NCBI GenBank assembly: GCA_964426185.1
Contig: CAYRPF010000001.1
Coordinates: forward strand, 1 to 24,720
Length of the DNA stretch: 24,720 nucleotides
DNA from: an uncultured archaeon
GTDB lineage: Archaea; Asgardarchaeota; Lokiarchaeia; Sigyniarchaeales; Promethearchaeaceae
Direction: 5' to 3'
Of the stretch, positions 3,509 to 23,819 are shown piece by piece. The translations under genes and the position numbers were made by a program. The notes beneath the pieces were generated by a model. That model was not told the DNA's origin, did no database searches, and was given only the letters and a program-made list of their open reading frames with translations. Every line of letters starts with the position of its first letter. The first letter of the stretch is position 1.

Positions 3509-4291
3509 ATGGTACACCATAATTTATCTGAATTCGAGAGTATTGGAGAAAAATATGCTCATATTCTGTATTCTACTATGAAAATAAAAACCGTAGATGA
3601 TTTTGAGCGATATTCTATCGAGGATATTCATAATAGAACAGATATAGATTTAGAACGAATTAAGCAATGGAAAGATCTAATTGATCTTTTTCGCGTGCCA
3701 AATTTAGGGGCGCGTGAGTGTGAACTGCTTTATTTTGCTAATATTAATTCGGTAGAAGAACTTTCTCATCGCCAATCCCTTCGTATATTTTATAAACTTC
3801 GAGAGATCGATGAAGAAACCCGTTTCATTGTACTCACATTTCCCTCATTTGCCCAAATTGACGATTGGATATTCTTTGCTAAACACATGAATAAACGCAT
3901 AAAATACGGGTTGAATGTGCCCTTAATTCTGTTTCCCATGGTCAATTTAGATGTAGCCAGCGAATTTAAGAAGTTTAACATCTTTACCGTGGAACATTTA
4001 TTAGAGAAAGTAGATCAAATTAACCATCTTCATCGAAAAGTGCATTTAAGAAAAAAAGATTATAAAATGTTTTTAGAAATGATAAATTTTATACGTATTC
4101 CAGGAATCGATATTAAAATAACGAATTTACTGTTCCAAGCAGGAATTGATAGTCTGGAAAAGTTCAAAAAACTATCGCCTGATGAAATTTTATCTCAAAT
4201 TAATCAAATATCCGAAATTCCCGCTAATTTACGTAAAGAGTTAACTTCTGAAACTATAAAAGAGTTTCAAAAATATCAGGAAGGTGAATAA
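3509..4291 (+). CDS. DUF4332-type helix-hairpin-helix repeat protein (two tandem units)
   Basis: Four HhH-like motifs: ESIGEKYAHIL..KIKTVDDF, RVPNLGARECELLYFANINSVEEL, FPMVNLDVASEFKKFNIFTVEHL, RIPGIDIKITNLLFQAGIDSLEKF. Confidence 0.75.
   Translation: MVHHNLSEFESIGEKYAHILYSTMKIKTVDDFERYSIEDIHNRTDIDLERIKQWKDLIDLFRVPNLGARECELLYFANINSVEELSHRQSLRIFYKLREIDEETRFIVLTFPSFAQIDDWIFFAKHMNKRIKYGLNVPLILFPMVNLDVASEFKKFNIFTVEHLLEKVDQINHLHRKVHLRKKDYKMFLEMINFIRIPGIDIKITNLLFQAGIDSLEKFKKLSPDEILSQINQISEIPANLRKELTSETIKEFQKYQEGE
4283..4287 (+). promoter_or_regulatory. Shine-Dalgarno GGTGA inside the upstream gene end, serving ATG 4294
   Basis: GGTGA lies 6 nt before the ATG; only 2 bp separate the upstream stop from this start. 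Confidence 0.6.
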
Positions 4292-4293
4292 TT

Positions 4294-7200
4294 ATGGAAC
4301 AAATGGATTGGATACTTTTAGGGATTTATGGATTTATTTTTCTGATTACTTTCTTAATCGGATTTTTTATGGTCAGGCATAATTTAGGAGAAATCAATCG
4401 AATTGAAAAAGAAAAGTTTGATCTGGGAGATTATGCCGCTATGATTGGATTTGGTGTAATGTTCGGGCTTTCTCTTTTGTTTATTTGTGATCTCACCTTA
4501 GAAGCCATACAGCCCGGAGTTTATTTTAGTGTAGCAAGTTATGTGTTAACAGCAATGTTAATAATATTGGTTATATACCCCCTTTGGGAAGCCATCTTTT
4601 TGGGGAGACCTACTAGTGATTCCGTTCATGATTTTCATAAATTTTTGGAATCAAAATTTTTAGATAAATTCAAAGGAAAAGCGGCTTATTTAATATCTTT
4701 TTTGATATTTATTGTAATTTACATCGTTCCAATATTCCTAATCTGGTATTTTTCTGCGATTTCTCTGGCTCAAGTCGCGTTCATGTGGTTTTTAGTCTTT
4801 CCACTTTTCTTTTTGAACTATTTCGCTTCCCAAGGTCAGGTGAGTGGAATTATTCAAGCAACATATCGTCGTAGTATTCCGAAGGAAGTTATTCACAATT
4901 CCAACCTGGGAAAAAGCAAATTGAAACAGATTATGAATATTCTTTTTATTTTAATTGCGTGGGCACCCTTTATCCTCTCCTTTTATAATTTTCTAAATCC
5001 GATTATCAAGGCGATCAAAGGATACACCTTTACTGAAAAGGATAAAATGATGGGATATGTATCGATCCTAACTACTGTGCCATTTGGAATCAAAGGATTC
5101 TTCCAAAAATTCTGGAATAAAAAAGCCAAGACCAAAACTATTGACTATCTATTTGGAGGATATATTTTTATTGCAATAGGAGTCAACATGTTGTTAAACT
5201 TTGTCCAAATTGAAAAGGGAGTTGTGGAATCAATTTTTACTTCCAATATATTGCTAAAACCAATCCAACCGATATTTGAAAATTATGGGATTTTAGTACC
5301 TTTGATTGTAATTCAATCATTTATCACCATTGTTTTTGGAACATATACGCTGTTGCAAGGAAATTCTGACTTTCATTCAGATATTAGGTTGCAAGCTACT
5401 GCCTTAGCCTACGGTGATTTTGCAATTGAAGAAATTATAAAATCAAGACAGTCAGAAATCGACCGCAAAAGCAGGAGTGAAAAAGATATTGAAAGGGATT
5501 TAGCCCATCAAGAAGAAAAGGCAGAAAATGGAATAAAAAAAACCAAAATAAGAAGTAAAAAAGAAAAAAATAAAGTAAAAGTAAAAATTAAACACGATAT
5601 CCTTACGTTATACAAGTCACTACTTTTAGCGCCAGTTTATAGTGTTCATGGAGTTGATCTGAATGAACAGATAAGAATTAAAGCGGCACAATACTTGAAC
5701 ATGATAGCTGTAGAAGATAAAAACGAAGCAGAAAAAATTGTGTCTTTTGTTTTCGTTACATGCTTAAATGAAGAGAAAAAGCAGATCAACAATCATGATA
5801 TTTTCAATAGTAAAGAAGCTCTTGAACTTTTAGGTGAAATTGGAACCATATATCCAGAAATCGTGCTAGAACGCCTTATCAAAGCACTTTCTTATAGTGA
5901 TATTCGAACCCAGCGCAATATTTTAGATGCATTAGGAGATATTGGAGAAACTAAAGAAAATCTACTGTTAATATTAGAAAAAATCAAACCCTTATTGATT
6001 GACCAAAGAACTGAGGTCAGAACTGCCGCGTTCCAAGCAATTACAGAAATGATTCTGGAGGGGCAAAACCAAGATGAAGCCTTTGTCCAAGAGATTCTGA
6101 AAGTAATTTATTCCATTCTGAAAGAAGAATACAGAAATCCAGAAGCAATTGACTCAGCATTCGAAGCTTTAGTCCAAATGAGTGCAAAAATTGCAGATAA
6201 TCTCTCCATTGATAAAATTGTGCCATTTCTGGATTACAATGAAGGTTCTGATGAAGAAACTATCGAGTACATATTGCAAAATGCAATTATAGTGCTTTCT
6301 TACATGGTTTATTACAACATCGATTCTTTTCCCTTGGAAAAAGTTAGATCCTTTTTAAAAGATGACCGAGCCTTTTTACGGTATGCTGCCGCCGATGCAG
6401 TAGGAAATTACATTTTAAAAGGCCCGAAGGAGGCGAAAGAGGAAATCTTAGTGGATCTAATGATTTTGGCGCTACATGATCCCGATATAGATGTAGTTCA
6501 AATGTGTGCCGAAAGTATTGCGGAATTTCTTATTATGAATAAGGGATATGAACCAATCATTGATGGAAAAAGAATCTCGATCATTGATTATTTCACCCAT
6601 GCTATGACCTCTTCTGACACCAGTGTAGCAGAAAACGCTTCAGAATCTTTGAAATTAATCTCCCCTATGTATGATGATGTTAACATATACCCTCAACTCG
6701 AAATATATCTGAAAGGAGAAAATTTGGAATTAATCAGGAATTGTTTGCATGTAATTGCACTATCCGATAGTGAAGAGCATAAAAGCGCGGACTTAAACCT
6801 TCTATATCAATTAAGCCGACATCATGATGCTAGCATTCGGGATAAAGCAGTATTCACCTTGGGAATGATTGCGGAAGATCGACCGGAGATTGACGAAAAT
6901 GTATTGTTCGAGCGTTTAGATGATGAGGATCCTCAAGTTCGCCAAGAAGCAATCTTTTCATTGGGGAAAATTGGAATTCAAAAACCATTGGTTGTTACCA
7001 CAGAATTAATTCAACGTTATTTCCAATTGGATAAGGAATCGGAAAAATTTGTTTCTGAAATCGAACTCTATGCGGAATCTTTAGGCGTAATCGGAGCACA
7101 TCATCCTTCCAACGAAATTGTGATCTCTCTTCAAGCCACTTTGATGGGAGACACCAATGTATTCGCTAAAGATGTAATTGCCCGAGCTTTAGGTGCAATA

Positions 7201-7935
7201 GGGAATGGAATGATAAAATCTGGTGCAACAATTCGTCGAATTGAGGATGAAGCATTTTTAAATCGGATTTCTTGGTTGAAAGTAATCAAGAAAAAAGAAT
7301 TTACCATCGGAAATTTAATAATTTTCTTGATTGAAGCCCTCCAATTAAAAGGAATACCTAATAGCGTGATGAATGAAATTAGCGATTCTATTCAAGATCT
7401 TCTGCCAGTATTTCTTTTTGCCAGAGAAGAAGGGGAAGATCCAAAAAGTAATAAAACATTAGAAATAATTAAAAAACTGCTAGCCCAAGCATATTATGCC
7501 AATTATAATAATGAAATATTGGAAACCATTGATAGAATTGATTCTTTGATTAGTTTTAAGAAATTTTTTGAAGAAGAAGACCCTCGTATTAAACAACAAT
7601 TTATCTTCTATTCAAAACAGTATACGCCTGATGGAAAACAATTCTACGATCAAGGGGTGCTTTTCACGATATTAGCAGAGCAAGATCCCTCATACCTTCC
7701 ATACGCACTGGAATCATTTGAAATAGCAGTAAATTTAGCGCCTTATGAATATTTCACTCCTAATTGCTTACTAAATATGGGAGAAATCTATTCGAAAAAC
7801 AAGAATTATCAAGCTGCGGAGGAGCATTTAGCAGAAGCTTTAGAATTATTTTCATCGATGGATGATGTAGATATGATGAAAAAAGTAGAAGAAAAATTGT
7901 CAATTGCCCGTAAATTAAGAGCAAATGCACCATAA
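4294..7935 (+). CDS. Polytopic membrane protein (about 8-9 TM) fused to a HEAT-repeat solenoid and C-terminal TPR
   Basis: Hydrophobic helices over aa ~5-355 and a K/E-rich linker at ~380-435. HEAT repeats include LIKALSYSDIRTQRNILDALGDIG, LLIDQRTEVRTAAFQAI and LDDEDPQVRQEAIFSLGKIG. TPR: CLLNMGEIYSKNKNYQAAEEHLAEALEL. Confidence 0.85.
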   Translation: MEQMDWILLGIYGFIFLITFLIGFFMVRHNLGEINRIEKEKFDLGDYAAMIGFGVMFGLSLLFICDLTLEAIQPGVYFSVASYVLTAMLIILVIYPLWEAIFLGRPTSDSVHDFHKFLESKFLDKFKGKAAYLISFLIFIVIYIVPIFLIWYFSAISLAQVAFMWFLVFPLFFLNYFASQGQVSGIIQATYRRSIPKEVIHNSNLGKSKLKQIMNILFILIAWAPFILSFYNFLNPIIKAIKGYTFTEKDKMMGYVSILTTVPFGIKGFFQKFWNKKAKTKTIDYLFGGYIFIAIGVNMLLNFVQIEKGVVESIFTSNILLKPIQPIFENYGILVPLIVIQSFITIVFGTYTLLQGNSDFHSDIRLQATALAYGDFAIEEIIKSRQSEIDRKSRSEKDIERDLAHQEEKAENGIKKTKIRSKKEKNKVKVKIKHDILTLYKSLLLAPVYSVHGVDLNEQIRIKAAQYLNMIAVEDKNEAEKIVSFVFVTCLNEEKKQINNHDIFNSKEALELLGEIGTIYPEIVLERLIKALSYSDIRTQRNILDALGDIGETKENLLLILEKIKPLLIDQRTEVRTAAFQAITEMILEGQNQDEAFVQEILKVIYSILKEEYRNPEAIDSAFEALVQMSAKIADNLSIDKIVPFLDYNEGSDEETIEYILQNAIIVLSYMVYYNIDSFPLEKVRSFLKDDRAFLRYAAADAVGNYILKGPKEAKEEILVDLMILALHDPDIDVVQMCAESIAEFLIMNKGYEPIIDGKRISIIDYFTHAMTSSDTSVAENASESLKLISPMYDDVNIYPQLEIYLKGENLELIRNCLHVIALSDSEEHKSADLNLLYQLSRHHDASIRDKAVFTLGMIAEDRPEIDENVLFERLDDEDPQVRQEAIFSLGKIGIQKPLVVTTELIQRYFQLDKESEKFVSEIELYAESLGVIGAHHPSNEIVISLQATLMGDTNVFAKDVIARALGAIGNGMIKSGATIRRIEDEAFLNRISWLKVIKKKEFTIGNLIIFLIEALQLKGIPNSVMNEISDSIQDLLPVFLFAREEGEDPKSNKTLEIIKKLLAQAYYANYNNEILETIDRIDSLISFKKFFEEEDPRIKQQFIFYSKQYTPDGKQFYDQGVLFTILAEQDPSYLPYALESFEIAVNLAPYEYFTPNCLLNMGEIYSKNKNYQAAEEHLAEALELFSSMDDVDMMKKVEEKLSIARKLRANAP

Positions 7936-11920: not shown

Positions 11921-12035
11921 TTTTCTATTTATTAAGAATACAAATTCAAGAAATTCAGTATTTCTTTATTTAACCTATAATATCTCCATTTATAATTACC
12001 ATAACTTTTAATTATCCATATTGCGTTATAAAATA

Positions 12036-12041
12036 GAGGAG
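12036..12041 (+). promoter_or_regulatory. Shine-Dalgarno GAGGAG before TTG 12049
   Basis: GAGGAG lies 7 nt upstream of the TTG start; a TATA-like TTTTAATTAT lies at about 12006-12015. Confidence 0.6.
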
Positions 12042-12048
12042 TTTAGAA

Positions 12049-13494
12049 TTGACGGAACAACCCCCAGAAAATTCGACAAAATCGAATGAACCCCCCAGTA
12101 ATTTAGAACATTCTCAAGAGCCCCCGCATTTGACTCTCACAAAAGAATTTTTGCCCCATGAAAATTCTCCTTCTATAAGCGAACATTTTCCACCTTCCGA
12201 TCTATTTAGCAATCAATCATTTTTGGTGGATGAATCTATATATTGCTCATTTTCAAACTATTTTAACCCTTTCCTTGAACAACTAAACAGTATTAACCAG
12301 TATTTTCCCGAATACCAACCACTCTTTACTTATCTAACATTTTGTTTATCAAAGATTCCAACGATATCAAATGAGAAAGAAGTTCCAGAACAACCAAGTA
12401 AATCTCCAGAAGATGCTGCATCTAAGAAAAATTTGAAAGAAGGATCAATTTCTAATAATTTTGATGAAATACCTTTTCCACTTTCACGCCGTGTTTTGAT
12501 ATTTGCTCCTTCTGGACATGGATTATCAGATTTTTTTAGTCTATATGGAAAATTATATCATATTCAAATTTTTCACCTTGATGTTTATGTTTCTAATGAG
12601 ATTTCGAAGATACCACCTAATTATTCTCTTTCACACCATCTTAACACCCGTCTCCCTATTGAAATGGAAGGAAATGTTGTTCTTTCCGTATATATCCATT
12701 TTACAAATTCTTCATCAAGAATTTCCCCTCAAAATTCTCACACACTAAGCCTTACAACCTTGATTCAAACTATAATAAGAGATCTTTTCACAGGTTTTAA
12801 CAAAAATCATTTTCCAATTCTTATTGTTTTAGAAAAATCTTTGACTAATGAAATCTCTCCTTCTCTAATTTCCCAAAGCGATTTTGTATTTAATTTTAAT
12901 TTACCTTCTTATCAAACCAGAGTGCAATTTTTAAAGGCTTTACCTTCTTTGATCCCTAAAAATTCACTTGACATGGAGCACATTGCACACCAGATGGATA
13001 ATTGGAACTTTGATCATATAGTGAATTTCTACAAATCGTGTCAACAATACTTTGTTATGGAAAATTGGGATAAAAAATGGAAAAAGAAGGAAATCACTAC
13101 TGAATATATCCTTAATGTTTTAGAAAGCGGTATTTTTCAACCAGATATTAAGCAAAAGTCTAATATTTCTGAATCTCTTCTCACATCATCTTCATCGCTT
13201 TCATCCCAATTAAATGAAAGCGATTTTTATTTCCTTCAGAGAGAGAGAACAGGCTATTACAATCCAGATTTTGTCAACCAACTATTTCAAGAGATTGCCA
13301 GTTTTAATTACAACGAAATTACTTTAATTTTGGATAAATTACAGCGCGGCATTAAATTGCATAAGGATGAATTATCAATATTAGGGAATTATCCGTTTCT
13401 CTTGAAATTTCAACCCAAAGATGCATTAAATCGACTACAAAAGGCTAAGCAGCGGCTTTCTCAGATCGAAAAAATAAATATTCAACCTAAGTGA
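12049..13494 (+). CDS. Degenerate (probably inactive) classical-clade AAA+ domain protein
   Basis: RVLIFAPSGHGLS is an eroded Walker A lacking Lys, with no recognisable Walker B DE. PSLISQSDFVFNFNLPSYQTRVQFLK and LDMEHIAHQMDNWNFDHIVNF match the SRH/lid pattern of CDC48/FtsH-type AAA proteins. The N-terminus is P/S/E-rich and likely disordered. Confidence 0.65.
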   Translation: MTEQPPENSTKSNEPPSNLEHSQEPPHLTLTKEFLPHENSPSISEHFPPSDLFSNQSFLVDESIYCSFSNYFNPFLEQLNSINQYFPEYQPLFTYLTFCLSKIPTISNEKEVPEQPSKSPEDAASKKNLKEGSISNNFDEIPFPLSRRVLIFAPSGHGLSDFFSLYGKLYHIQIFHLDVYVSNEISKIPPNYSLSHHLNTRLPIEMEGNVVLSVYIHFTNSSSRISPQNSHTLSLTTLIQTIIRDLFTGFNKNHFPILIVLEKSLTNEISPSLISQSDFVFNFNLPSYQTRVQFLKALPSLIPKNSLDMEHIAHQMDNWNFDHIVNFYKSCQQYFVMENWDKKWKKKEITTEYILNVLESGIFQPDIKQKSNISESLLTSSSSLSSQLNESDFYFLQRERTGYYNPDFVNQLFQEIASFNYNEITLILDKLQRGIKLHKDELSILGNYPFLLKFQPKDALNRLQKAKQRLSQIEKINIQPK

Positions 13495-13513
13495 ATTATT
13501 TTTGGTGTAAAGA

Positions 13514-16500
13514 ATGTCTAAATCTGATGAAAAAACAAGAATTGGTCCTAATTTAGCAATTACTTCAAAGGAAATTCGGGATCAAAATATATCATCAGAT
13601 ATTTTGCAACAAAGACCTCCTTCTGTAGTTGTAGAAAAAATTCTTTTACAGAACTTTCTTTCGTTTGAAAACGAAGAAGTTGTTTTTGATCCAAATTTTA
13701 CTATAATTATTGGACCTAATGGTGCGGGTAAAAGTTCGATTTACCAAGCGTTAAAATTCGCATTAGGATCTAATGATTATGATGGTCGATATAACAAGTG
13801 GTCCGATTTTATTCATACGGGCGCGGAAAAGGCAGTAGTGCAGATTCACATTAAATGGAATCAAGAAGAATTTCTGATTCAACGTGTTGTTAATCAACAT
13901 GGTGCTCCAAAGTTCTTTCTAAAGAAACCAAATGATAAAAAATTAAAAAATGTCTTAGGTCATAAAATACAAGAATTTCTTAAAAAGATACAAATAGATC
14001 CTAATAATATTTTTTCCTTTATGTCTCAAGGAAGTATAGATTCCTTGAAAGATTTCAAAGAAGAGAGACTTTGCTATTTTGTAGAAAAAGGTTTAGGTCT
14101 AAACGTTACACGTGAGCAAATTATTGAAATTAAAAGAGATATTTGCCGATTAAATAAAGAAGAGCAGACTTTACTTGCAGAAAGGGAGAATATGGCTTAT
14201 AAATTAGCCGAATTACAACCTTTAATAGAACAACTAAAACACAAAAAGGTTCTTACTTCTAAATTGGAAGAAGTCCAATTTGAGTTAATTCTATCACAAA
14301 AAGTTGATATAGAAAATAAAATTCGTGATTTACAGCACAAAAAACTTTTATTTTTAGAGAAAGTACGATCATATGAGTTAAAAATTGTAGAAATAGAACA
14401 TCAATTATCTCAAAAAGAGCAGGAAAAGCAAAAAAACTCTATGAAATATAAGGATTTAATTGAAAAACGAACTCAACTTCAAGAGAGATACGACCAAATT
14501 AACAATCAAATCAAAGAATGGACTGTTGAGAAAAATCAGCTTGCCCTTCAAATCCAAAAATGGGAACAAGAAATTGTAGACTTGGATAAAGATTTAAAAC
14601 AAATAAACTCTGAATTATCTTTTCAGACCACTAAGCAAATTACTATCCAAGATCAAATAGCAAACATTAAAATAAAAATCAAAGAGATAGATGAAAAGCA
14701 GCGTAAACTAGAAGAAGATATGCAAAGTTATCGCTCTTCATTAATAAAATTGGAATCCGAGCAAGAAATTGCGTCAATATTGCATTCCCAGATTGAAGAA
14801 TATCGAAGTAATTATAAGACTCTTGAGCAAGAAATAATGAAAAAAATCGCTGAAATTGAAAAAATTAAGCGGAATTTTCGGCAATATCAGTGGTTTTTAA
14901 AAAACCCAACCCCAAATTTACCTTCTTTAATGCGGCAAGAAAAAAAAAATATTGAAAAGCGATTGGAAGAACTACAAAATGTCTTAAAGGATCTTCAAAA
15001 TCAATATGAAGAGAAAACTCACAAAATAGATAAAATCAAGAGTTCAATCATCGATAAAAGTTTTCCGAAACCTCGGGCTATAAAATCTCTACTGGATGAA
15101 GTTCAAGAAAGGAAATTGAATTGTTTGGGGCCCTTAATTGATTATATTACATATGATGATATATATCGTTCTGCAGTGGAATCTATATTTGGTTTTTCAG
15201 TTTTATTTAGTTTCATTGCTAAAGATAGAGAAACTTTTCATTTACTAACTCAATTAGTAAAAAAACACGGTGCTCAATGTAAAATTTACAAAGAACGCCA
15301 TAATACAATTAATCCTCTTCCATCCATCACCCCTGATCCTTCTTCTGGTATTTTTGGATATTTGGCAGAAAAAATTCAACCTATTAATGCGGATCAAGCA
15401 ATAAAAAAGGTTATTTACACCGTGGCTAATAAAACTTTAGTAGTTAAGGATCAACTGATTGGAGAACAGTATATAGAACGTTACCACTGGAATTTTTGGG
15501 TGGTTACACTTGATGGTGATCAAATAAGACCTAAAAAATTGGTATTAGAAGCAAGACCCCGTATCTATAATTCTAATCGTCCAAAATTTCATAGTGTCGC
15601 TCACGCTAAACAAGAAATTGATAAACTTATAGCTGAAATGGAGCAAAATCGAGAACTTTTTTCTCAACGAGAGCTGATTTTGAAGAAAACTCGACGAAGA
15701 TTGGTTATTTTAGAAGATCGTCTGCGCGATGTAGATCGGCTTGTTGCTGACTATAAATTGTTGGAAATTAAAACCACTCTGAAGAATAAAGCAGTTAAAG
15801 ATAAGACAGAGTTATATGAAAAAATAAAAGCCCAAGAACAGAGTTTGCAAAAAAAAGAGCATTTGATTAGTTCAATTAAAAAAACACTTCCCGATTCCTT
15901 GATGGAGCAAAAAAATATCTTGGATCAAATTCCCCAAGAAAAAGAACAATTGATGGAAACATTAGAAGAATATCGCGATACACTGAAAAACCTTCAAAAA
16001 TCTTGTGAAACTTCGAAACTTAGGAAAATTCAGCTTGAAACACGTATTGAAGACTTAATTAGTCAAAAAACACAACTACAGACCGATTTACAATCGAAAG
16101 ATAGTAATTTTTACCAACTTTTTCAACAGAGTATGCAGTTAAAAAAAGAGATTCAACAACAAAAGAATCAAGAAACTAATATTAAACATGATTTAGCCCA
16201 AATAGAAGAAGATATTAAGGATCTATACCGCAATAAACAAGAAATCGCTACAAAAAAGGAAAAAATTCAGCATCAATCATCAATAATTAATCAGGAAATA
16301 ACTGAAAATGAAGAAAAACTAAACCAAATTCAAAGATCACTGCAAAAAGTTGAAAAATTATCAATACCTCGCCCAATCGAAGAAATAGAAGCAGAAATTG
16401 AATATCTCAATCATCAAATCTCTTTATTCCATGTGGATGACAGTATTTTATTGGAAAAAGAAAATTTAGAATCAATTTTAGATCGCATTAGTGAAAAGCG

Positions 16501-17047
16501 TCAATCTCTTCAGCACGAAATCGAAGCTGCGAAAAAATCTCATAACAAGTTGGAATCCATATTTAAAACCAGTTTTTCTGAAAAAATCCGAATACTGCAG
16601 GATTTAACAAATGAGAAATTAAACCATATTAAACAAAACTTTAGCATTAACATAAAACTTAAAGGAGATATCGAATCATTACGACTTTCTGTAACCACTA
16701 CCACTAATCTTAACGAAAAGCCCGTTTCTTTTCCTTTACATGCAGTTAGTGGAGGGCAACGCTCACTTGTGGGGATATGCTTAATTTTATCCCTAACTCA
16801 TCTTAATCCTTCTCCCTTGAATATATATGATGAAATGGATATGTTTTTAGATGAGAAAAATGCGGAGGCAATTGCCAAATTAGTTAATACTCAAGCACAA
16901 AACGGTATTCAATTTATTTTGCTTATGCCCAGTAAGAATGTTGCATTGCTGAAATCGGCAAATCAAGTCATTGGAGTTAGTCGAAATGGTAAATTCGGGC
17001 CTTCTTCTGTTCATTATTCTCGGGTATTTTCTCCTAATGTGGGGTGA
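13514..17047 (+). CDS. smc: SMC-family ATPase, Smc5/6-like
   Basis: ILLQNFLSF, Walker A GPNGAGKSS, Q-loop FMSQG, long coiled coils, globular hinge (LGPLIDYI...AVESIFG...VVTLDGD), signature VSGGQR, Walker B/D-loop IYDEMDMFLD and QFILLMP. Confidence 0.92.
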   Translation: MSKSDEKTRIGPNLAITSKEIRDQNISSDILQQRPPSVVVEKILLQNFLSFENEEVVFDPNFTIIIGPNGAGKSSIYQALKFALGSNDYDGRYNKWSDFIHTGAEKAVVQIHIKWNQEEFLIQRVVNQHGAPKFFLKKPNDKKLKNVLGHKIQEFLKKIQIDPNNIFSFMSQGSIDSLKDFKEERLCYFVEKGLGLNVTREQIIEIKRDICRLNKEEQTLLAERENMAYKLAELQPLIEQLKHKKVLTSKLEEVQFELILSQKVDIENKIRDLQHKKLLFLEKVRSYELKIVEIEHQLSQKEQEKQKNSMKYKDLIEKRTQLQERYDQINNQIKEWTVEKNQLALQIQKWEQEIVDLDKDLKQINSELSFQTTKQITIQDQIANIKIKIKEIDEKQRKLEEDMQSYRSSLIKLESEQEIASILHSQIEEYRSNYKTLEQEIMKKIAEIEKIKRNFRQYQWFLKNPTPNLPSLMRQEKKNIEKRLEELQNVLKDLQNQYEEKTHKIDKIKSSIIDKSFPKPRAIKSLLDEVQERKLNCLGPLIDYITYDDIYRSAVESIFGFSVLFSFIAKDRETFHLLTQLVKKHGAQCKIYKERHNTINPLPSITPDPSSGIFGYLAEKIQPINADQAIKKVIYTVANKTLVVKDQLIGEQYIERYHWNFWVVTLDGDQIRPKKLVLEARPRIYNSNRPKFHSVAHAKQEIDKLIAEMEQNRELFSQRELILKKTRRRLVILEDRLRDVDRLVADYKLLEIKTTLKNKAVKDKTELYEKIKAQEQSLQKKEHLISSIKKTLPDSLMEQKNILDQIPQEKEQLMETLEEYRDTLKNLQKSCETSKLRKIQLETRIEDLISQKTQLQTDLQSKDSNFYQLFQQSMQLKKEIQQQKNQETNIKHDLAQIEEDIKDLYRNKQEIATKKEKIQHQSSIINQEITENEEKLNQIQRSLQKVEKLSIPRPIEEIEAEIEYLNHQISLFHVDDSILLEKENLESILDRISEKRQSLQHEIEAAKKSHNKLESIFKTSFSEKIRILQDLTNEKLNHIKQNFSINIKLKGDIESLRLSVTTTTNLNEKPVSFPLHAVSGGQRSLVGICLILSLTHLNPSPLNIYDEMDMFLDEKNAEAIAKLVNTQAQNGIQFILLMPSKNVALLKSANQVIGVSRNGKFGPSSVHYSRVFSPNVG

Positions 17048-17741
17048 TATTATAGAAGAAGCAAAAATAACATATCAGAAATTGCAAACCTTGTTGCATC
17101 GCTTGGAATACTTAGAGAATCAAGCAGAGGTTAATTCTGATCAATTGTTAGAAGAAAATTTAATCCCCATATTTCAAGAATTGACTTCTTTTCTCAACTC
17201 TGATGAACTTGATTTAGGTCTTTCAATTTTGAAAAGTGGAACTTCCATTTTAAGCTTAAAAATAGAAGCTATTAAGCATTATATCTTACTTCTTTCGCAA
17301 AATGAATTGATAACACAATTTATCGAAAATTGCCAGGATGATAAATTACTTTGTTCTTTAATAAATCAATCTTGGCAAACGCCATTTTGCTTAACCAGTA
17401 TCTCTTCTTCCTTCTTATTCCAAAGTTATAAAAATCTCGTTGCCAAAAAACATACAAGAAATCTTAATTCAGAAAAAAAGGCTCAAGAACTTACTTTTTC
17501 ATCAGAAAAGACCGAAAAGTTAATTCATACATCTTCGGAAGAATTTCATATCGAGTTACTTAATTTTTATAACACGATTATTCCATTGCTTCCTTGTCAG
17601 TTATCGAAATTACTACAACCTTTTTCAAAACCTTCCGAATATTTTCAATATTTTTCTTATATATTACATCTAACTCAAGAAGGGTTGATTCAGTATGATC
17701 CTTCTAAAAAAGAATTTTTTTTAACAGAAAAAGAAATGTGA
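17037..17741 (+). CDS. Kleisin-like subunit (ScpA/Nse4-like); ORF open from 16971, likely start ATG 17037 overlapping the smc stop
   Basis: N-terminal ELDLGLSILKSGTSILSLKIEAI resembles the kleisin N-helix (DL...G..L..A..LL..K). C-terminal LSKLL....PSEYFQYFSYILHLTQEGLIQYD resembles the kleisin C-winged helix (F..LL.L...G.I). Size and position directly after smc fit. Confidence 0.7.
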   Translation: MWGDIIEEAKITYQKLQTLLHRLEYLENQAEVNSDQLLEENLIPIFQELTSFLNSDELDLGLSILKSGTSILSLKIEAIKHYILLLSQNELITQFIENCQDDKLLCSLINQSWQTPFCLTSISSSFLFQSYKNLVAKKHTRNLNSEKKAQELTFSSEKTEKLIHTSSEEFHIELLNFYNTIIPLLPCQLSKLLQPFSKPSEYFQYFSYILHLTQEGLIQYDPSKKEFFLTEKEM

Positions 17742-17783
17742 GAATTTATCGAACAAGTTACAATTAAAAGGGATTGATCCTTC

Positions 17784-18365
17784 ATGAATGAATTCAGTAT
17801 TCTAACCCATTTACTCAGTGACTCACACAAGTTGGATGACTCGTTTGATCAGCCACCCATTATTGGGAGTACTGAAGCTCAGATAATGAAAGCCCTGGGA
17901 ATGCGCGGTAAATTTGCTAAACTTCACTTAGTAGAGTTGTTAAATACTTACGCGGATTCTATTCGAGTTTTTGGATTATATATTCGGAAAAATCCTCTTA
18001 ACCATCATTGGTTTCTAACCAAATCATCTGCAATATCGGATCTTATCTCCAGTAATCCTTTTCAAAATAGACCCCGCCTTGGTGCGACTCTAATGGTAAT
18101 TATCTCTGCAATTTTTACCTCTAAAAAGCCTGTAGATAAAAAATATGTCTTAAAACTTCGAAAAAAAGTTTCAATTGATCATGATCTTCAAGAATTGGAA
18201 GATATGCATTTCATCATAGTTTCTAATTCCACGGTATCTTTACATCCTTATTTGGGCTATTGTTTAGATTTAGAACATCTTTTTACCGCTTTGGAAAATT
18301 CTGCCTTGAATTTCGATTCAAATCAATCTTTATCTTCATCTTCTCCTTCATCCCCTACATCTTAA
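17784..18365 (+). CDS. KITE-like tandem winged-helix protein (ScpB/Nse1/Nse3-like)
   Basis: WH-A: LVELLNTYADSIRVFGLYIRKNPLNHHWFL. WH-B: LGATLMVII...KPVDKKYVLKLRKKVSIDHDLQELEDMHFI, which parallels ScpB (ETLAII..QPITRAEIE.IRG.....L..L.E..LI). It is about 190 aa, third in an smc-kleisin run, with a Ser-rich tail. Confidence 0.65.
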   Translation: MNEFSILTHLLSDSHKLDDSFDQPPIIGSTEAQIMKALGMRGKFAKLHLVELLNTYADSIRVFGLYIRKNPLNHHWFLTKSSAISDLISSNPFQNRPRLGATLMVIISAIFTSKKPVDKKYVLKLRKKVSIDHDLQELEDMHFIIVSNSTVSLHPYLGYCLDLEHLFTALENSALNFDSNQSLSSSSPSSPTS

Positions 18366-18447: not shown

Positions 18448-18786
18448 ATGTTGTACCTTGAGAAAATGGGATTGTTTACACGTAAAACAAAAGAAACTTC
18501 TGAACCACAAAATGGACCCGAGAGTTTTTATATCAAACGCATTACATTGAATGGTGCTCGAGATTTTGTACTTCTTCAACAAAATCTTTTAGAAGGGAAT
18601 CTAATGATTGTGAATTTTCGCCCACTGGCTCGAACAGCACATCAAAGCAATTCAGAAAGTTCAATGTTGCATGATCAACTCCAGAGAATTAAAAAATATT
18701 GTTTACGGACAGGTGGAAGTGTTACGAAGTTAAAAGAATCCCTTTTGTTAATTACACCCAATAATTTATTTCGAATTGAGCGTTAG
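18448..18786 (+). CDS. sepF: Cell division protein SepF, archaeal type; likely start ATG 18466 (MGLFTRK)
   Basis: YIKRITL..ARDF..LQQNLLEGNLMIVNFRPL...LQRIKKYCLRTGGSVTKLKESLLLITP matches the SepF core; MGLF resembles the N-terminal membrane-targeting helix. Confidence 0.8.
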   Translation: MLYLEKMGLFTRKTKETSEPQNGPESFYIKRITLNGARDFVLLQQNLLEGNLMIVNFRPLARTAHQSNSESSMLHDQLQRIKKYCLRTGGSVTKLKESLLLITPNNLFRIER

Positions 18787-20753: not shown

Positions 20754-23700
20754 TTATCTAAAAATTTTGGCAATTAACTTCTTAAATTGGTTGAGCATTT
20801 CAGGAGAGTATTTAAGGTTTGAGAATCGATTAAACCATGCTTCACAGGCTAAATATTCAGTTTCATCGGAGTATATACTCCCTCGTATTGTATTGTCAAA
20901 TTGAATAATATAAGAAATAAGCGGAAGTGGAAGCTGAAGCAAGATACCCAGTAAAAAATCTCCCAAATCTAAGAAGGGCTTAATTTGAGAAGAATTAAAG
21001 CGTTTACGTTTTGGATCATAATGCCTAAATAATAATTCCATCAAATTCATGCGATAGATGTTTAATATAGGTGCGAATTGAGTTAAAATGTCTGAATAAC
21101 CTGTAGGAAGGGGAAATGCAGATAAGATATCGCTATTCATATGCCTTCCATCACTGAAGATACGAAACCAAGTGTAAAATAAGGATGAATTGATTAAAAG
21201 CAAAACAAAATCGCGTATATAAGGTTTTGAAGAATTTATTGGTAAAAATGCTATCTGTGTACCAAAATATGGCAGTTTGTCCCAAGCATTATACCAATAA
21301 TTTCCAGAAATACGAATCCAAAGGCCAGTTTTTGAGCAATTTAGATATTTTTCATTAATTTCTTCTAACTTACTTTGGTTTTCACAAATAATTGAAGGGG
21401 ACAACCAGTTCCTTAAAGTTAAACCATTGTTTTCTTTCCAAGATTTAAATTTTGAAAGAAGCGAGGTTAGTTCATGAGTTCCAATTTTAGGAATTCTGTG
21501 AGGGGTATTAAAAGTAGAGCCAATGGTTCTTCCCAATAAATAGGAATTAGCAGATTGGAATTTCAAATTTGTAAAAGAAGGAAATGTTCGATACATAATT
21601 GTTGTGTACCAATTAGCTTCATTCTCTTTTTGAAAAGGATTTTTTAAATATCCTAAAAGAATGGAAACAGATTGAGTCATATTTTCAAATAACCGGCAGC
21701 GATCTCGGTCAAAAGTAGCTAAGAAGATATCTGTAAGTGTTCTCGTTAAATTTTGGCGCAGCGGGGATAATTTTTTATTGAAACAGATTGTATAAGAAGT
21801 TAAATATCCCAAACTGCCCCTCTCTTTAAGGAGTTGTGTTGCCCGAGATATAAACACGCTCGATATCTCATTATTAACTCCAAAATTGTCAGAAATAAGG
21901 TTAATACAGTTTTTTTCTTCAATTGAAAGAAGATCTCCATAAGGAGGGTTTCCAATGATGAGATCAAAACCAGGATTAAATTGAATACTTTTATTAGGAT
22001 GAAAAAAAGATGAAGGGGGGATAAAAAATTCCGGAAATTCTAGAATCCAATGAAATAATCGTAAATTTGTTGAATAAATATTTTGTTTTGGAAAATATTG
22101 GGTTTCAAACAAAGCATCTAGCAAATCCTGCAAATATTGTCTAATTTTTGTCATATTCATCGAAATTTCAACAAGTTCACTTGTATCATCGAATTTTTCT
22201 TTAGATTGATAAAAATCGATAAACATTTTAAAAAATGGGAGTAGATAATCTAATAACCGACTTAAATCTTTTCCAGGAAATATTTGGAGTACTTCTTCAG
22301 AAAGAGGGAACTTCTTGATTTTGGTAAAAAACTTCTGCCTTTTTAGAATTTTTATAAGTGAAAATAAATTAGAATATGTTTCCATGATTTTTTGATGAAT
22401 TCCCATAGGAACATTATGAGTTTGCACCTTACTTAAGACTATATCTAGATTTTCCCAAGAATTCCAGCCAAATAGTGCGTTGCCGTGCCGAATGTTCATT
22501 GAAAATTTAAAAATTTGCATATTATCTATTTCTTTAGCGGAACCATCATTTAATGCTCGAAGATAAAACCGCCATCGGGCAATAAAGCAAGCATTTACAT
22601 TAATATCTACTCCATAAAGCATTATTGGATAACTAACGAAATATCTAAACAGAAATTTCACTTCATCAAAGTCATCACATGTAGCTAAATCTAACACCTC
22701 TTCATTAATAACGTGAATTTTCAAAATGTCATAGAATTTTCGTTCTCTACATATCTGCCATAGATTTGAAGCGAATTGCAATATCACTTCATCCATTGCC
22801 AAAAGGAATTCACCAGTTCCTACCGCTGGATCAAGAATTCTACATTGAATCAATTCATGGTGCATGGTTCGAATAACTTTTTTTGCAATTTCGGCGTCCT
22901 CTCGACGAAGATAAGCATTTACTATATCAATAATTTTTTCTGCTTTTGAGGGAGTCCACTGCTCGATTTCTTTAAAAATTGCTTGATTATGGGATGTATT
23001 GAGCAATTTGGTACATTTTTGAAAAGAGGCGCTAAATATTCGGGGAAAAAGTAAATTTCTTGCAATAAATAAGCAAATATATGCTGGTGTATAAAATGCA
23101 CCAGTATGATTTTTTGTTTCTGTATGTAAAAAGCGTTCAAATAAATCTCCTAAGTCATTTTCGGTAATATTACTATATTTTTTCTCAAAGTGAAGACATG
23201 CATTAAAGATTGGTATTTCGAATTCAACATCTTTCCATTTTTTGATTTTTTCACCTGAAATAGAGATTTCTGCGTTATAAAGGCATTTGGATGGAATATT
23301 TGACAGAGAAATTAAAGAGATCTGACGCAATTTGTTGTCATGAAAAAGAAATGGGTCTATTTTAGTAGAAATTTCTATTTTTTCAATTTTCTTCTTGTTA
23401 TCGGTTAAAATAGGCATGAAATTATTCTTTTTCGGAATACTGTTCTTGAAATTAATTTGCTCGGAAATAGATTGATTGAAAATGCTATTATAAGAAGAAA
23501 ATGTTCGGAAAAAGGACTGTTCAATAAAATGTGCTAAAATTATTGGGTAATCGTCATGGGGAGAAATTTTTCGGTAAAGTGTGGAAAAAAAATCGAAGTC
23601 ACCAGATATCATTCCTTTTCTTTGCAATATCCATAAAAAAATTAAGAATAAGATGGTGTTATTTAGCTTTTCATTCTCCAATAATTGAAAACCCTCAAAA

Positions 23701-23819
23701 TTTCCCGATTTTTCTTCTCTCATAGAATGTTTTTGAAGTTCTTGAAAAATGTATTGCTTAACCCGGGTAAAAAGGTGGAAAAAATAAAGATGACGAGTAT
23801 TTTCTTTATTCCTTTTCAA
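20754..23819 (-). CDS. N6-adenine DNA methyltransferase, Eco57I/type IIG-like (gamma class), with no evident nuclease domain
   Basis: GAFYTP, motif I ILDPAVGTGEFL, LYGVDIN, NIRHGNAL, FHWILEFPE, motif IV FDLIIGNPPY, and a TaqI_C-like segment LINSSLFYTWF...FPLP. Confidence 0.9.
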   Translation of the reverse strand: MKRNKENTRHLYFFHLFTRVKQYIFQELQKHSMREEKSGNFEGFQLLENEKLNNTILFLIFLWILQRKGMISGDFDFFSTLYRKISPHDDYPIILAHFIEQSFFRTFSSYNSIFNQSISEQINFKNSIPKKNNFMPILTDNKKKIEKIEISTKIDPFLFHDNKLRQISLISLSNIPSKCLYNAEISISGEKIKKWKDVEFEIPIFNACLHFEKKYSNITENDLGDLFERFLHTETKNHTGAFYTPAYICLFIARNLLFPRIFSASFQKCTKLLNTSHNQAIFKEIEQWTPSKAEKIIDIVNAYLRREDAEIAKKVIRTMHHELIQCRILDPAVGTGEFLLAMDEVILQFASNLWQICRERKFYDILKIHVINEEVLDLATCDDFDEVKFLFRYFVSYPIMLYGVDINVNACFIARWRFYLRALNDGSAKEIDNMQIFKFSMNIRHGNALFGWNSWENLDIVLSKVQTHNVPMGIHQKIMETYSNLFSLIKILKRQKFFTKIKKFPLSEEVLQIFPGKDLSRLLDYLLPFFKMFIDFYQSKEKFDDTSELVEISMNMTKIRQYLQDLLDALFETQYFPKQNIYSTNLRLFHWILEFPEFFIPPSSFFHPNKSIQFNPGFDLIIGNPPYGDLLSIEEKNCINLISDNFGVNNEISSVFISRATQLLKERGSLGYLTSYTICFNKKLSPLRQNLTRTLTDIFLATFDRDRCRLFENMTQSVSILLGYLKNPFQKENEANWYTTIMYRTFPSFTNLKFQSANSYLLGRTIGSTFNTPHRIPKIGTHELTSLLSKFKSWKENNGLTLRNWLSPSIICENQSKLEEINEKYLNCSKTGLWIRISGNYWYNAWDKLPYFGTQIAFLPINSSKPYIRDFVLLLINSSLFYTWFRIFSDGRHMNSDILSAFPLPTGYSDILTQFAPILNIYRMNLMELLFRHYDPKRKRFNSSQIKPFLDLGDFLLGILLQLPLPLISYIIQFDNTIRGSIYSDETEYLACEAWFNRFSNLKYSPEMLNQFKKLIAKIFR

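What the first reader, a model, noticed from the sequence alone, without database searches (positions are those of the whole stretch)
12049..18365. Candidate complete prokaryotic Smc5/6-type complex operon: dead AAA+ / SMC / kleisin / KITE
Seen: four co-oriented genes with gaps of 19 bp, an 11-bp overlap and 42 bp, and an SD-led first gene. Established: SMC-kleisin-KITE is the core of Smc-ScpAB, MukBEF, Wadjet and eukaryotic Smc5/6, and Smc5/6-related SMCs have been reported in some archaea. Inference: the two small genes, which would normally be called hypothetical, are the kleisin and KITE, giving a homodimeric precursor of Smc5/6-Nse4-Nse1/3 with an extra AAA-derived subunit I do not know from any characterised SMC complex. 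There is no JetD-like nuclease, so its role could be chromosome maintenance/repair or Smc5/6-like restriction of extrachromosomal DNA.
Basis: partly seen in the sequence, partly recalled or inferred. Interest (0 to 1): 0.85.

Follow-up and report, generated by a model that had tools for sequence, protein, structure and literature searches.

The report
Asgard second SMC operon with dead AAA
This Lokiarchaeal operon encodes a second chromosome-handling SMC ring (SMC, kleisin, KITE) of a kind already reported in Asgard archaea, plus an apparently undescribed, always co-encoded, catalytically dead AAA protein that may be a fourth subunit.

Summary
Four co-oriented genes lie at 12049-18365 with a 19-bp gap, an 11-bp overlap and a 42-bp gap.

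- **What the genes are.** The 1177-aa gene is a divergent but motif-complete SMC with a hinge. The 234-aa gene has kleisin architecture and kleisin fold hits. The 193-aa gene is a confident tandem winged-helix KITE. The first gene is a CDC48-D2-derived AAA that has lost its catalytic motifs.
- **Not the housekeeping condensin.** The genome (genus Ca. Harpocratesius) also has a canonical Smc-ScpB locus and a long Smc-kleisin-ScpB locus.
- **Conservation.** The four-gene order recurs in Loki-, Thor-, Frey- and Baldrarchaeia. The KITE and the AAA tail domain are each single-copy, with almost the same distribution (141 and 142 of 301 Asgard genomes).
- **Prior work.** An SMC5/6-related SMC-kleisin-kite operon in Lokiarchaeia was published by van Hooff et al. 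(bioRxiv 10.1101/2024.01.07.573240), so the trio is not new.
- **Smc5/6 affinity.** My similarity tests do not show it. SMC2-4 outscore SMC5/6, and ScpB is slightly closer than Nse1. It rests on that paper plus elimination.
- **What seems new.** The dead-AAA partner is not mentioned in the papers I could search. Its binding to the complex is inferred, not shown.

The scan had already noted parts of this stretch separately.

The parts
11921..12048 (+). Upstream intergenic region with a TTATAAAA box and a GAGGAG Shine-Dalgarno-like site 8 nt before the TTG start. Likely operon promoter and leader.
   Evidence: Read directly. The upstream gene is an unrelated 4-alpha-glucanotransferase. Promoter function was not tested.
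12049..13494 (+). Gene 1: pseudo-ATPase. It has a low-complexity N-terminus (about 1-55 and 101-140), a degenerate classical AAA domain (about 141-380, large subdomain plus lid) and a family-specific helical C-terminal domain (about 385-481).
   Evidence: The family profile A3 hits the VAT/p97 D2 domain at 3e-36. Pfam AAA is found in 9 of 19 orthologues and AAA_lid_3 in 4 of 19, with no Pfam hit for the window protein itself. All Atlas structure neighbours of residues 141-380 carry PF00004. The Walker A lysine, Walker B glutamate, pore loop and sensor-1 Asn are absent. The C-terminal domain is found in only 109 clusters of 1.84 billion, always at the C-terminus.
13514..17047 (+). Gene 2: divergent SMC ATPase with an N-head, coiled-coil arm, hinge (about 538-651), arm and C-head. 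A paralogue of the genome's canonical Smc.
   Evidence: Pfam SMC_N 2e-22 and SMC_hinge 4e-5. TIGR02169 scores 175.5 bits against a cut-off of 729.4. Walker A GPNGAGKS, the Q-loop, SGGQR and the Walker B DE are present and conserved in the family. The H-loop position reads LLMPSK instead of ITH. The own genome has a canonical Smc on C3 at 828 bits.
17037..17741 (+). Gene 3: kleisin, with an N-terminal helical domain (about 1-112), a disordered linker (about 144-165) and a C-terminal winged-helix domain (about 167-230).
   Evidence: Profile A2 against PDB: three of the top four hits are the ScpA C-terminal WHD bound to the Smc head (4i99_C 0.036, 5xns_C 0.08, 5xg3_C 0.14). AF2 model pLDDT is 78.6. 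The Foldseek top 10 are all kleisin chains: Brn1, Nse4, MukF, RAD21. No Pfam ScpA or Nse4 hit.
17784..18365 (+). Gene 4: KITE subunit with two tandem winged-helix domains (about 1-80 and 97-153) and a C-terminal helix plus a Ser-rich tail.
   Evidence: AF2 pLDDT 89.2, pTM 0.75. The Foldseek top 10 are all ScpB (2e-4 to 3e-3), followed by MAGE, Nse1/Nse3 and JetB. Only KITE proteins align over both domains: ScpB Z 11.6 and 11.2, Nse1 Z 10.0 and 9.4. Five of 8 close homologues hit Pfam ScpB weakly, best 1.5e-6.

Best explanation
The four genes form one operon for a second, non-housekeeping SMC holocomplex of Asgard archaea.

Shown: a motif-complete SMC with a hinge, a protein with kleisin architecture, and a tandem-winged-helix KITE are encoded in the textbook order SMC-kleisin-KITE. 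Each occurs once per genome and is inherited vertically across at least four Asgard classes.

Inferred from what is established for Smc-ScpAB, MukBEF and Smc5/6: an SMC homodimer is closed into a ring by the kleisin. The kleisin N-domain sits on one neck and its C-terminal WHD on the other head's cap. A KITE dimer sits on the kleisin middle. The ATPase cycle entraps or extrudes DNA.

The first gene encodes a decayed CDC48-D2-type AAA protein that cannot hydrolyse ATP. Its best-kept parts are the lid and a family-specific C-terminal helical domain. I infer that it is a non-catalytic fourth subunit or dedicated regulator, such as a loader, targeting factor or ATPase modulator. That would be comparable in role, not in ancestry, to Nse5/6, ParB or MatP.

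By published phylogeny the trio belongs to the archaeal 'SMC5/6-related' lineage. The cellular role (repair, segregation, or control of extrachromosomal DNA) is open.
For: - **Gene layout and coupling:**
- **SMC motifs and hinge:**
- **Kleisin:**
- **KITE:**
- **Paralogy.** The own genome also has a canonical Smc (828 bits) with ScpB on C3. It has a 1487-aa Smc, a 382-aa protein and ScpB on C6. Thor- and Freyarchaeia have a canonical Smc (877-885 bits) as well as this one.
- **Synteny.** 17 of 20 loci fetched around KITE hits show the four genes, as do four loci of families f10 and f11.
- **Distribution.** KITE profile hits are in 141 of 301 genomes and the gene-1 tail-domain profile hits in 142 of 301, with near-identical tallies per family (f1 6/6 and 6/6, f2 64/69 and 63/69, f9 61/76 and 60/76, f21 6/6 and 6/6). 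There is one hit per genome, apart from two genomes where the kite match is split or fragmentary.
- **Spacing.** I compared 54 genomes where both hits lie on one contig. In 52 they are 4.2-8.5 kb apart on the same strand.
- **Translational coupling.** Gene 1 overlaps the SMC start by 4-11 nt in Thor and Baldr loci.
- **Gene 1 is an AAA and is dead:**
- **Taxon names:**
- **Literature.** An SMC5/6-related SMC-kleisin-kite operon is reported in P. syntrophicum, which has two ScpB-like kites plus one Nse1/3-like kite. This matches my finding that Pfam ScpB hits only the C3 and C6 kites here.
Against: - No physical evidence shows that any of the four proteins bind each other.
- Membership of gene 1 in the complex rests on synteny, phyletic pattern and translational coupling only.
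- The Smc5/6 affinity is not visible in my similarity tests.
- Orthology to the published P. syntrophicum genes was inferred by elimination, not by comparing sequences.
- In two Thorarchaeal genomes (G260, G206) the KITE lies 12-15 kb from the other three genes. In Freyarchaeum the SMC is only about 835-850 aa.
- No expression data could be obtained.
Confidence: 0.72

Rival explanations
1. The SMC-kleisin-KITE trio is a real complex, but gene 1's product is not a stable subunit. It would be a co-regulated accessory factor that acts transiently (an assembly or turnover factor), or on something else, and is kept in the operon only for co-expression.
For: No interaction evidence exists. Classical AAA relatives usually act transiently on substrates. 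The Freyarchaeum orthologue keeps a complete Walker A (GRSGTGKT) and is annotated as an ATP-binding protein. MoxR-type AAA and VWA genes also neighbour the operon in Thor- and Baldrarchaeia, which hints at an assembly or remodelling context.
Against: Every orthologue examined has lost the Walker B glutamate, and all but those of one family have lost the P-loop lysine. The Baldr forms have lost much of the ATPase subdomain yet keep the lid and tail. That pattern is typical of a structural role. The strict one-to-one phyletic pattern and the start-stop overlaps with the SMC gene favour stoichiometric co-assembly.
Confidence: 0.2
2. The cluster is an SMC-based anti-plasmid or anti-virus defence system of the Wadjet or Lamassu type, with the AAA-like protein as sensor or effector partner.
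For: The SMC head gives partial hits to LmuB (95.6 bits) and weak ones to JetC. A type II restriction-modification fusion gene lies 2.4 kb downstream on the other strand. Eukaryotic Smc5/6 restricts extrachromosomal DNA (established knowledge).
Against: The kleisin, KITE and gene 1 give no PADLOC hit, and there is no nuclease or other effector. Conservation is single-copy and family-wide with stable flanking synteny. That is unlike the patchy spread of defence islands. The hits to LmuB and JetC are generic head and coiled-coil similarity.
Confidence: 0.05
3. It is simply this organism's fast-evolving housekeeping Smc-ScpAB condensin.
For: The order SMC-kleisin-KITE is the same, and the KITE is structurally closest to ScpB.
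Against: A canonical Smc above the TIGR02169 cut-off, with an adjacent Pfam-positive ScpB, exists on contig C3. It also exists in Thor-, Frey- and some Lokiarchaeal genomes beside this operon. This SMC scores 175.5 bits against a cut-off of 729.4.
Confidence: 0.02

Closest known systems
Archaeal 'SMC5/6-related' SMC-kleisin-kite operon (van Hooff, Raas, Tromer, Eme, bioRxiv 10.1101/2024.01.07.573240; P. syntrophicum genes NZ_CP042905.1_495/_496/_497). Also the SMC5/6-related aSMC of Yoshinaga and Inagaki 2021, PMC8665677.
   Same: The class (Lokiarchaeia) and the order SMC, kleisin, kite on one strand are the same. It is a third kite beside two ScpB-like kites. It coexists with a condensin/cohesin-related set.
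   Different: The papers do not mention the AAA-derived gene upstream ('AAA' and 'Cdc48' give no hit as a protein name in the text or supplements). I could not compare sequences with the published genes directly.
Eukaryotic Smc5/6-Nse4-Nse1/Nse3
   Same: SMC plus kleisin plus KITE architecture. Nse4 (7qcd_F) is the second-best Foldseek hit of the kleisin. In the representative-wide alignment it is the only listed hit spanning nearly the whole model. Nse1 aligns over both WH domains of the KITE at Z 10.0.
   Different: There is one SMC gene and one KITE gene, so homodimers are presumed. There is no RING, Nse2, or Nse5/6. The profile scores SMC2-4 above SMC5/6. Pfam Nse4_C and MAGE do not hit these genes.
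Bacterial and archaeal Smc-ScpAB
   Same: Ring architecture. The kleisin C-terminal WHD profile hits the ScpA C-terminal WHD. ScpB is the best structural match of the KITE.
   Different: The SMC is far below the family cut-off. There is no Pfam ScpA hit. The genome has its own canonical Smc-ScpB. There is an extra AAA-derived gene.
CDC48/VAT/p97 D2 domain (classical AAA clade)
   Same: Gene 1's family profile matches the D2 large subdomain plus lid at 3e-36.
   Different: It has a single AAA module. The Walker A lysine, Walker B glutamate, pore-loop aromatic and sensor-1 Asn are lost. It has a private C-terminal domain found in only 109 protein clusters. The few of these that carry a source name, and all genome hits, are Asgard archaea.

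Membership tests
SMC-kleisin-KITE complexes (general) | SMC with Walker A, Q-loop, signature motif, Walker B, long arms and a hinge | tested here: met
   Pfam SMC_N and SMC_hinge. Motifs read. S1079-G1080-G1081 and D1106-E1107 are invariant in the family.
SMC-kleisin-KITE complexes (general) | Kleisin with an N-terminal helical domain, a flexible linker and a C-terminal winged helix | tested here: met
   AF2 architecture. ScpA C-terminal WHD profile hits. The Foldseek top 10 are all kleisins, with weak E-values of 0.013-0.2.
SMC-kleisin-KITE complexes (general) | KITE with tandem winged-helix domains | tested here: met
   pLDDT 89.2. ScpB, Nse1, Nse3 and JetB are hit.
SMC-kleisin-KITE complexes (general) | Kleisin binds the SMC neck and cap, and a KITE dimer binds the kleisin | not tested
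The core interfaces were not modelled.
Canonical Smc-ScpAB | SMC reaches the TIGR02169/TIGR02168 cut-off | tested here: not met
   175.5 bits against 729.4, and 170.9 against 567.
Canonical Smc-ScpAB | Kleisin matches Pfam SMC_ScpA (PF02616) | tested here: not met
   No hit for the window protein, for 19 orthologues, or in the whole genome.
Canonical Smc-ScpAB | KITE matches Pfam SMC_ScpB (PF04079) | tested here: inconclusive
   No hit for the window protein. Five of 8 close homologues hit weakly, best 1.5e-6.
Archaeal SMC5/6-related complex (van Hooff et al.) | SMC, kleisin and kite branch with Smc5/6, Nse4 and Nse1/3 in phylogenies | not testable with these tools
   No eukaryotic or TACK reference sequences could be obtained. 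Raw similarity does not favour Smc5/6.
Archaeal SMC5/6-related complex (van Hooff et al.) | A third, non-ScpB-like kite next to its own SMC and kleisin, beside ScpB-like sets | tested here: met
   Pfam ScpB hits only the C3 and C6 kites. The window kite family is distinct and sits in the order SMC-kleisin-kite. This matches the P. syntrophicum counts of two ScpB-like kites plus one Nse1/3-like.
Wadjet / Lamassu defence systems | JetA/JetB/JetD or LmuA/LmuC partners, a nuclease effector, and patchy distribution | tested here: not met
   PADLOC hits only the SMC head. There is no nuclease. Distribution is single-copy and family-wide.
Classical AAA ATPases (CDC48-like), for gene 1 | AAA fold (large subdomain plus lid) | tested here: met
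   Profile hit to VAT/p97 D2 at 3e-36. Atlas structure neighbours all carry PF00004.
Classical AAA ATPases (CDC48-like), for gene 1 | Catalytic Walker A GxxxxGK[ST] and Walker B hhhhDE | tested here: not met
   The window reads APSGHGLSDF. Thorarchaeia read GPPGTDF. Only Freyarchaeum reads GRSGTGKT. None of the orthologues examined has the Walker B DE pair: D-N, D-Q, Q-S or E-R stand in its place.

The most novel reading that the evidence does not exclude
The dead AAA protein is a true fourth subunit of the Asgard SMC5/6-related complex. It would be a CDC48-D2 module that lost catalysis and was kept as a structural loader or regulator. It would then be an SMC accessory subunit of a class not known from any characterised SMC complex. 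Together with the MoxR-type AAA and VWA genes that travel with SMC loci in Asgard genomes, this would point to AAA-assisted loading or remodelling of SMC rings before eukaryotes arose.
Probability: 0.35. Interest if true: 0.75.

Novelty: new variant of a known kind. Interest (0 to 1): 0.55.

Why it matters
Asgard archaea are the closest known relatives of the eukaryotic host lineage. How one prokaryotic SMC ring became cohesin, condensin and Smc5/6 is an open question.

The trio here is a clean, widely conserved example of the second archaeal SMC complex. It is present in both Loki- and Thorarchaeia and, by inference, in the cultured species. That makes biochemistry feasible.

The added value is the obligatorily co-encoded pseudo-AAA gene. 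If its product is a subunit, the complex has an accessory factor of a kind not seen in Smc-ScpAB, MukBEF, Wadjet or Smc5/6. Models of the ancestral Smc5/6-like complex would then need a fourth component.

If the product is not a subunit, the finding reduces to a good annotation of three 'hypothetical' genes that are already covered by a preprint.

Tried and rejected
- **Complex prediction.** I modelled gene 1 (residues 55-481) with the two SMC head halves and the kleisin C-part. The result was 'no answer', ipSAE 0.00 in both runs, and the controls were not run. This is no evidence either way.
- So I have no contig look-ups by protein and no expression data.
- **Pairwise BLAST.** The window kleisin and KITE against the genome's other kleisin-like and ScpB proteins gave nothing.
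- **KITE profiles against PDB by sequence.** Only single winged-helix regulators turned up, and no ScpB or Nse hits.
- **Pfam families in the own genome.** MAGE, Nse4_C and ScpA give no hit on these genes.
- **Representative-wide structure search of the kleisin.** It was dominated by generic three-helix bundles over residues 1-87. Nse4 was the only near-full-length row.
- **H-loop segment.** A 55-aa segment searched against PDB to test a recalled Smc5/6 'TPK' signature gave nothing usable. That signature remains untested memory.
- **The search for related loci in genome contigs.** It returned only the two nearest relatives. I could not fetch the P. syntrophicum locus by name.
- **SepF-like downstream gene as part of the operon.** Rejected. 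It is conserved only in the three loci from the window's own genus (the window and two genus relatives). In Thorarchaeia a different Zn-ribbon-wHTH gene takes its place.
- **HEAT/Cnd1 protein at 4294-7935 as a HAWK.** Not pursued.

Full report
**Observation.** The + strand carries ORFs at 12049-13494 (481 aa, TTG start), 13514-17047 (1177 aa), 17037-17741 (234 aa from the ATG; 256 aa from an upstream TTG) and 17784-18365 (193 aa). I read the junctions directly. There are 19 bp between gene 1 and the SMC. The SMC stop and kleisin start overlap by 11 bp (ATGTGGGGTGA). There are 42 bp before the last gene. GAGGAG lies 8 nt before the TTG, and a TTATAAAA box lies just upstream. The flanking genes are unrelated. 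Upstream are a GH57 enzyme and a 4-alpha-glucanotransferase. Downstream are a weak SepF-like gene, an unknown 156-aa gene on the other strand and a cold-shock protein.

**The SMC.** It has Pfam SMC_N and SMC_hinge, Walker A GPNGAGKS, a Q-loop, SGGQR and a Walker B DE. These are conserved in 17 orthologues. It reaches only 175.5 bits on TIGR02169, whose cut-off is 729.4. The genome (3.26 Mb, 92% complete) holds three full-length SMC genes.
- A canonical Smc of 828 bits on contig C3 is followed by a Pfam-positive ScpB.
- A 1487-aa Smc on C6 is followed by a 382-aa protein and a Pfam-positive ScpB.
- The third is the window's gene.

So this is a paralogous complex, not the housekeeping one.

**The kleisin.** It has no Pfam hit. 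With 19 orthologues aligned (A2), the profile's best PDB hits are the ScpA C-terminal winged helix in complex with the Smc head. These are 4i99_C at 0.036, 5xns_C at 0.08 and 5xg3_C at 0.14, and they align exactly to the C-terminal 60 residues. The AlphaFold2 model (pLDDT 78.6) shows long N-terminal helices, a disordered linker at 144-165 and a C-terminal winged helix. The ten best Foldseek matches in PDB are all kleisin chains of SMC complexes: Brn1, Nse4, MukF and RAD21, with E-values of 0.013-0.2. Each value is weak on its own, but the convergence is specific. I read it as a kleisin.

**The KITE.** The window protein has no Pfam hit, but 5 of 8 close homologues hit SMC_ScpB, best 1.5e-6. 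The model is confident (pLDDT 89.2, pTM 0.75) and shows two winged-helix domains in tandem. The Foldseek top 10 are all ScpB, followed by MAGE, Nse1, Nse3 and JetB. In the second-look alignment only KITE proteins cover both domains. ScpB gives Z 11.6 and 11.2, and Nse1 gives Z 10.0 and 9.4.

**Gene 1.** The window protein has no Pfam hit. The family profile (A3) matches the D2 AAA domain of VAT/p97 at 3e-36. Pfam AAA is found in 9 of 19 orthologues and AAA_lid_3 in 4 of 19. The Atlas model of residues 141-380 has only PF00004 neighbours.

The catalytic motifs are gone.
- Walker A reads APSGHGLSDF here and GPPGTDF in Thorarchaeia. It is intact (GRSGTGKT) only in Ca. Freyarchaeum.
- None of the orthologues examined has the Walker B DE pair.
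- The pore-loop aromatic and the sensor-1 Asn are also lost.
- In Baldrarchaeia much of the ATPase subdomain is deleted, while the lid and a roughly 75-aa C-terminal helical domain are kept.

That tail domain is rare. It occurs in 109 clusters among 1.84 billion representative proteins. It is always at the C-terminus, in proteins up to about 620 aa, many of them truncated fragments. The few members that carry a source name, and all genome hits, are Asgard archaea. 'Dead AAA+' is correct.

**Conservation.** A KITE profile found one match in each of 141 of 301 Asgard genomes. Two of them carry a split or fragmentary second match. The tail-domain profile found one in each of 142 of 301. The tallies per family are nearly the same: f1 6/6 and 6/6, f2 64/69 and 63/69, f9 61/76 and 60/76, f21 6/6 and 6/6. 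Both profiles found none in f7, f14, f16, f24 and f29.

Of 20 loci fetched, 17 show gene 1, SMC, kleisin and KITE in that order on one strand. Four more loci from f10 and f11 do too, with a shorter gene 1. I compared 54 genomes where both hits lie on one contig. In 52 they are 4.2-8.5 kb apart on the same strand. The other two are 12 and 15 kb apart. Gene 1 overlaps the SMC start by 4-11 nt in Thor and Baldr loci.

Source names place the window in the genus Ca. Harpocratesius. They identify f9 as Thorarchaeota, f21 as Ca. Freyarchaeum and f11 as Baldrarchaeia. Thor and Frey genomes have a canonical Smc as well.

**Literature.** Van Hooff et al. [quoted passage not shown] One is condensin/cohesin-related and one is SMC5/6-related. 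For P. syntrophicum they name genes _495, _496 and _497 as the SMC5/6-related SMC, Nse4-like kleisin and Nse1/3-like kite. That genome has two ScpB-like kites and one Nse1/3-like kite.

My genome shows the same pattern, with Pfam ScpB hitting only the C3 and C6 kites. By elimination the window trio is the orthologue. I could not compare the sequences directly. Neither that paper and its supplements nor the other papers I searched mention an AAA gene in this context.

**Smc5/6 affinity.** My own tests do not show it. The SMC family profile scores SMC2 at 227 bits, SMC3 at 214 and SMC4 at 212, above SMC6 at 171 and SMC5 at 159. Pfam Nse4_C and MAGE do not hit these genes. The KITE is slightly nearer to ScpB than to Nse1. 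These are similarity measures, not phylogeny, and Smc5/6 proteins evolve fast. The label therefore stays open here and rests on the published trees.

**Defence rival.** PADLOC hits only the SMC head (LmuB 95.6 bits, JetC about 20 bits or less) and nothing for the other three proteins. There is no nuclease. The vertical, single-copy pattern argues against a defence island.

**Mechanism.** The parts list and its conservation are shown. The ring model is inferred from the families: an SMC homodimer, a kleisin bridging neck and cap, and a KITE dimer on the kleisin. Gene 1's product as a non-catalytic fourth subunit or regulator is inferred from synteny, phyletic pattern, translational coupling and the pattern of decay, in which catalysis is lost while the lid and tail are kept. 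The one complex prediction I could run gave no verdict.

**Verdict.** This is a real and well-conserved operon. The SMC-kleisin-KITE reading is right but already published for Lokiarchaeia. The Smc5/6 label is plausible but not shown here. The dead-AAA partner is the new element and deserves a pull-down.

Noticed in passing
L017, L018, L020, L021, L023, L024, L029, L030, L037, L038 (Thor-type loci); L033 3978-7290 and L034-L036 (f10 and f11 loci; f11 named Baldrarchaeia); own genome C3:67254-70803 (L009 9246-12981): A MoxR-type AAA_5 ATPase (about 568 aa) and a VWA-like protein (about 560 aa) travel with SMC loci. They are divergent from gene 1 in Thorarchaeia. In the f10 and f11 loci they are co-directional with 4-nt overlaps, giving a six-gene operon. 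In this genome, in H. repetitus and in one other Lokiarchaeal genome (G144), they lie next to the canonical Smc instead (followed by ScpB in this genome). Three Lokiarchaeal genomes without a canonical Smc keep the pair elsewhere.
   Followed up: partly
L017 2084-2443, L018 2099-2470, L021 2114-2485, L023 2105-2467, L024 8511-8867, L030 8586-8957, L022 2114-2473: In Thorarchaeia a 120-aa TFIIB-type zinc-ribbon plus winged-helix protein directly follows the KITE gene. It does so even where the KITE is detached from the SMC (L022, L038). A zinc module next to a KITE recalls Nse1's RING, but this was not tested.
   Followed up: partly
window 18448-18786 (+): A 112-aa protein with a sub-threshold SepF match (17-18 bits, cut-off 27) lies 82 bp after the KITE gene. 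It is conserved there only in the three loci from the window's own genus. A second weak SepF-like gene lies at C66:2972-3190.
   Followed up: partly
window 3509-7935 (+): A DUF4332 plus helix-hairpin-helix protein is followed by a 1213-aa HEAT/TPR protein. The latter passes the Pfam Cnd1 (condensin CAP-D2-type) cut-off (50 bits, 3.9e-13) and lies 4 kb upstream of the SMC operon. The hit is likely a generic HEAT cross-hit.
   Followed up: no
window 20754-23819 (-): A 1021-aa Eco57I/MmeI-type methyltransferase fusion, probably a type IIG restriction-modification enzyme.
   Followed up: no
L019 4770-7277 (Ca. Freyarchaeum) and L020 3974-7080: In Freyarchaeum the operon's SMC is only about 835-850 aa, which suggests short arms. 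In one Thor genome it appears split into 797-aa and 239-aa ORFs.
   Followed up: no
Thor genus g49, e.g. G200:C205, G108:C43, G103:C9, G140:C8: The spacing between gene 1 and the KITE is 6.4-8.5 kb instead of about 4.5 kb. This suggests an insertion, such as an extra gene or an intein, inside the operon in this genus.
   Followed up: no
own genome C3:16969-17508: A 179-aa ORF gives a faint Pfam MAGE match (E 0.14) but has no SMC neighbour. Probably chance.
   Followed up: partly
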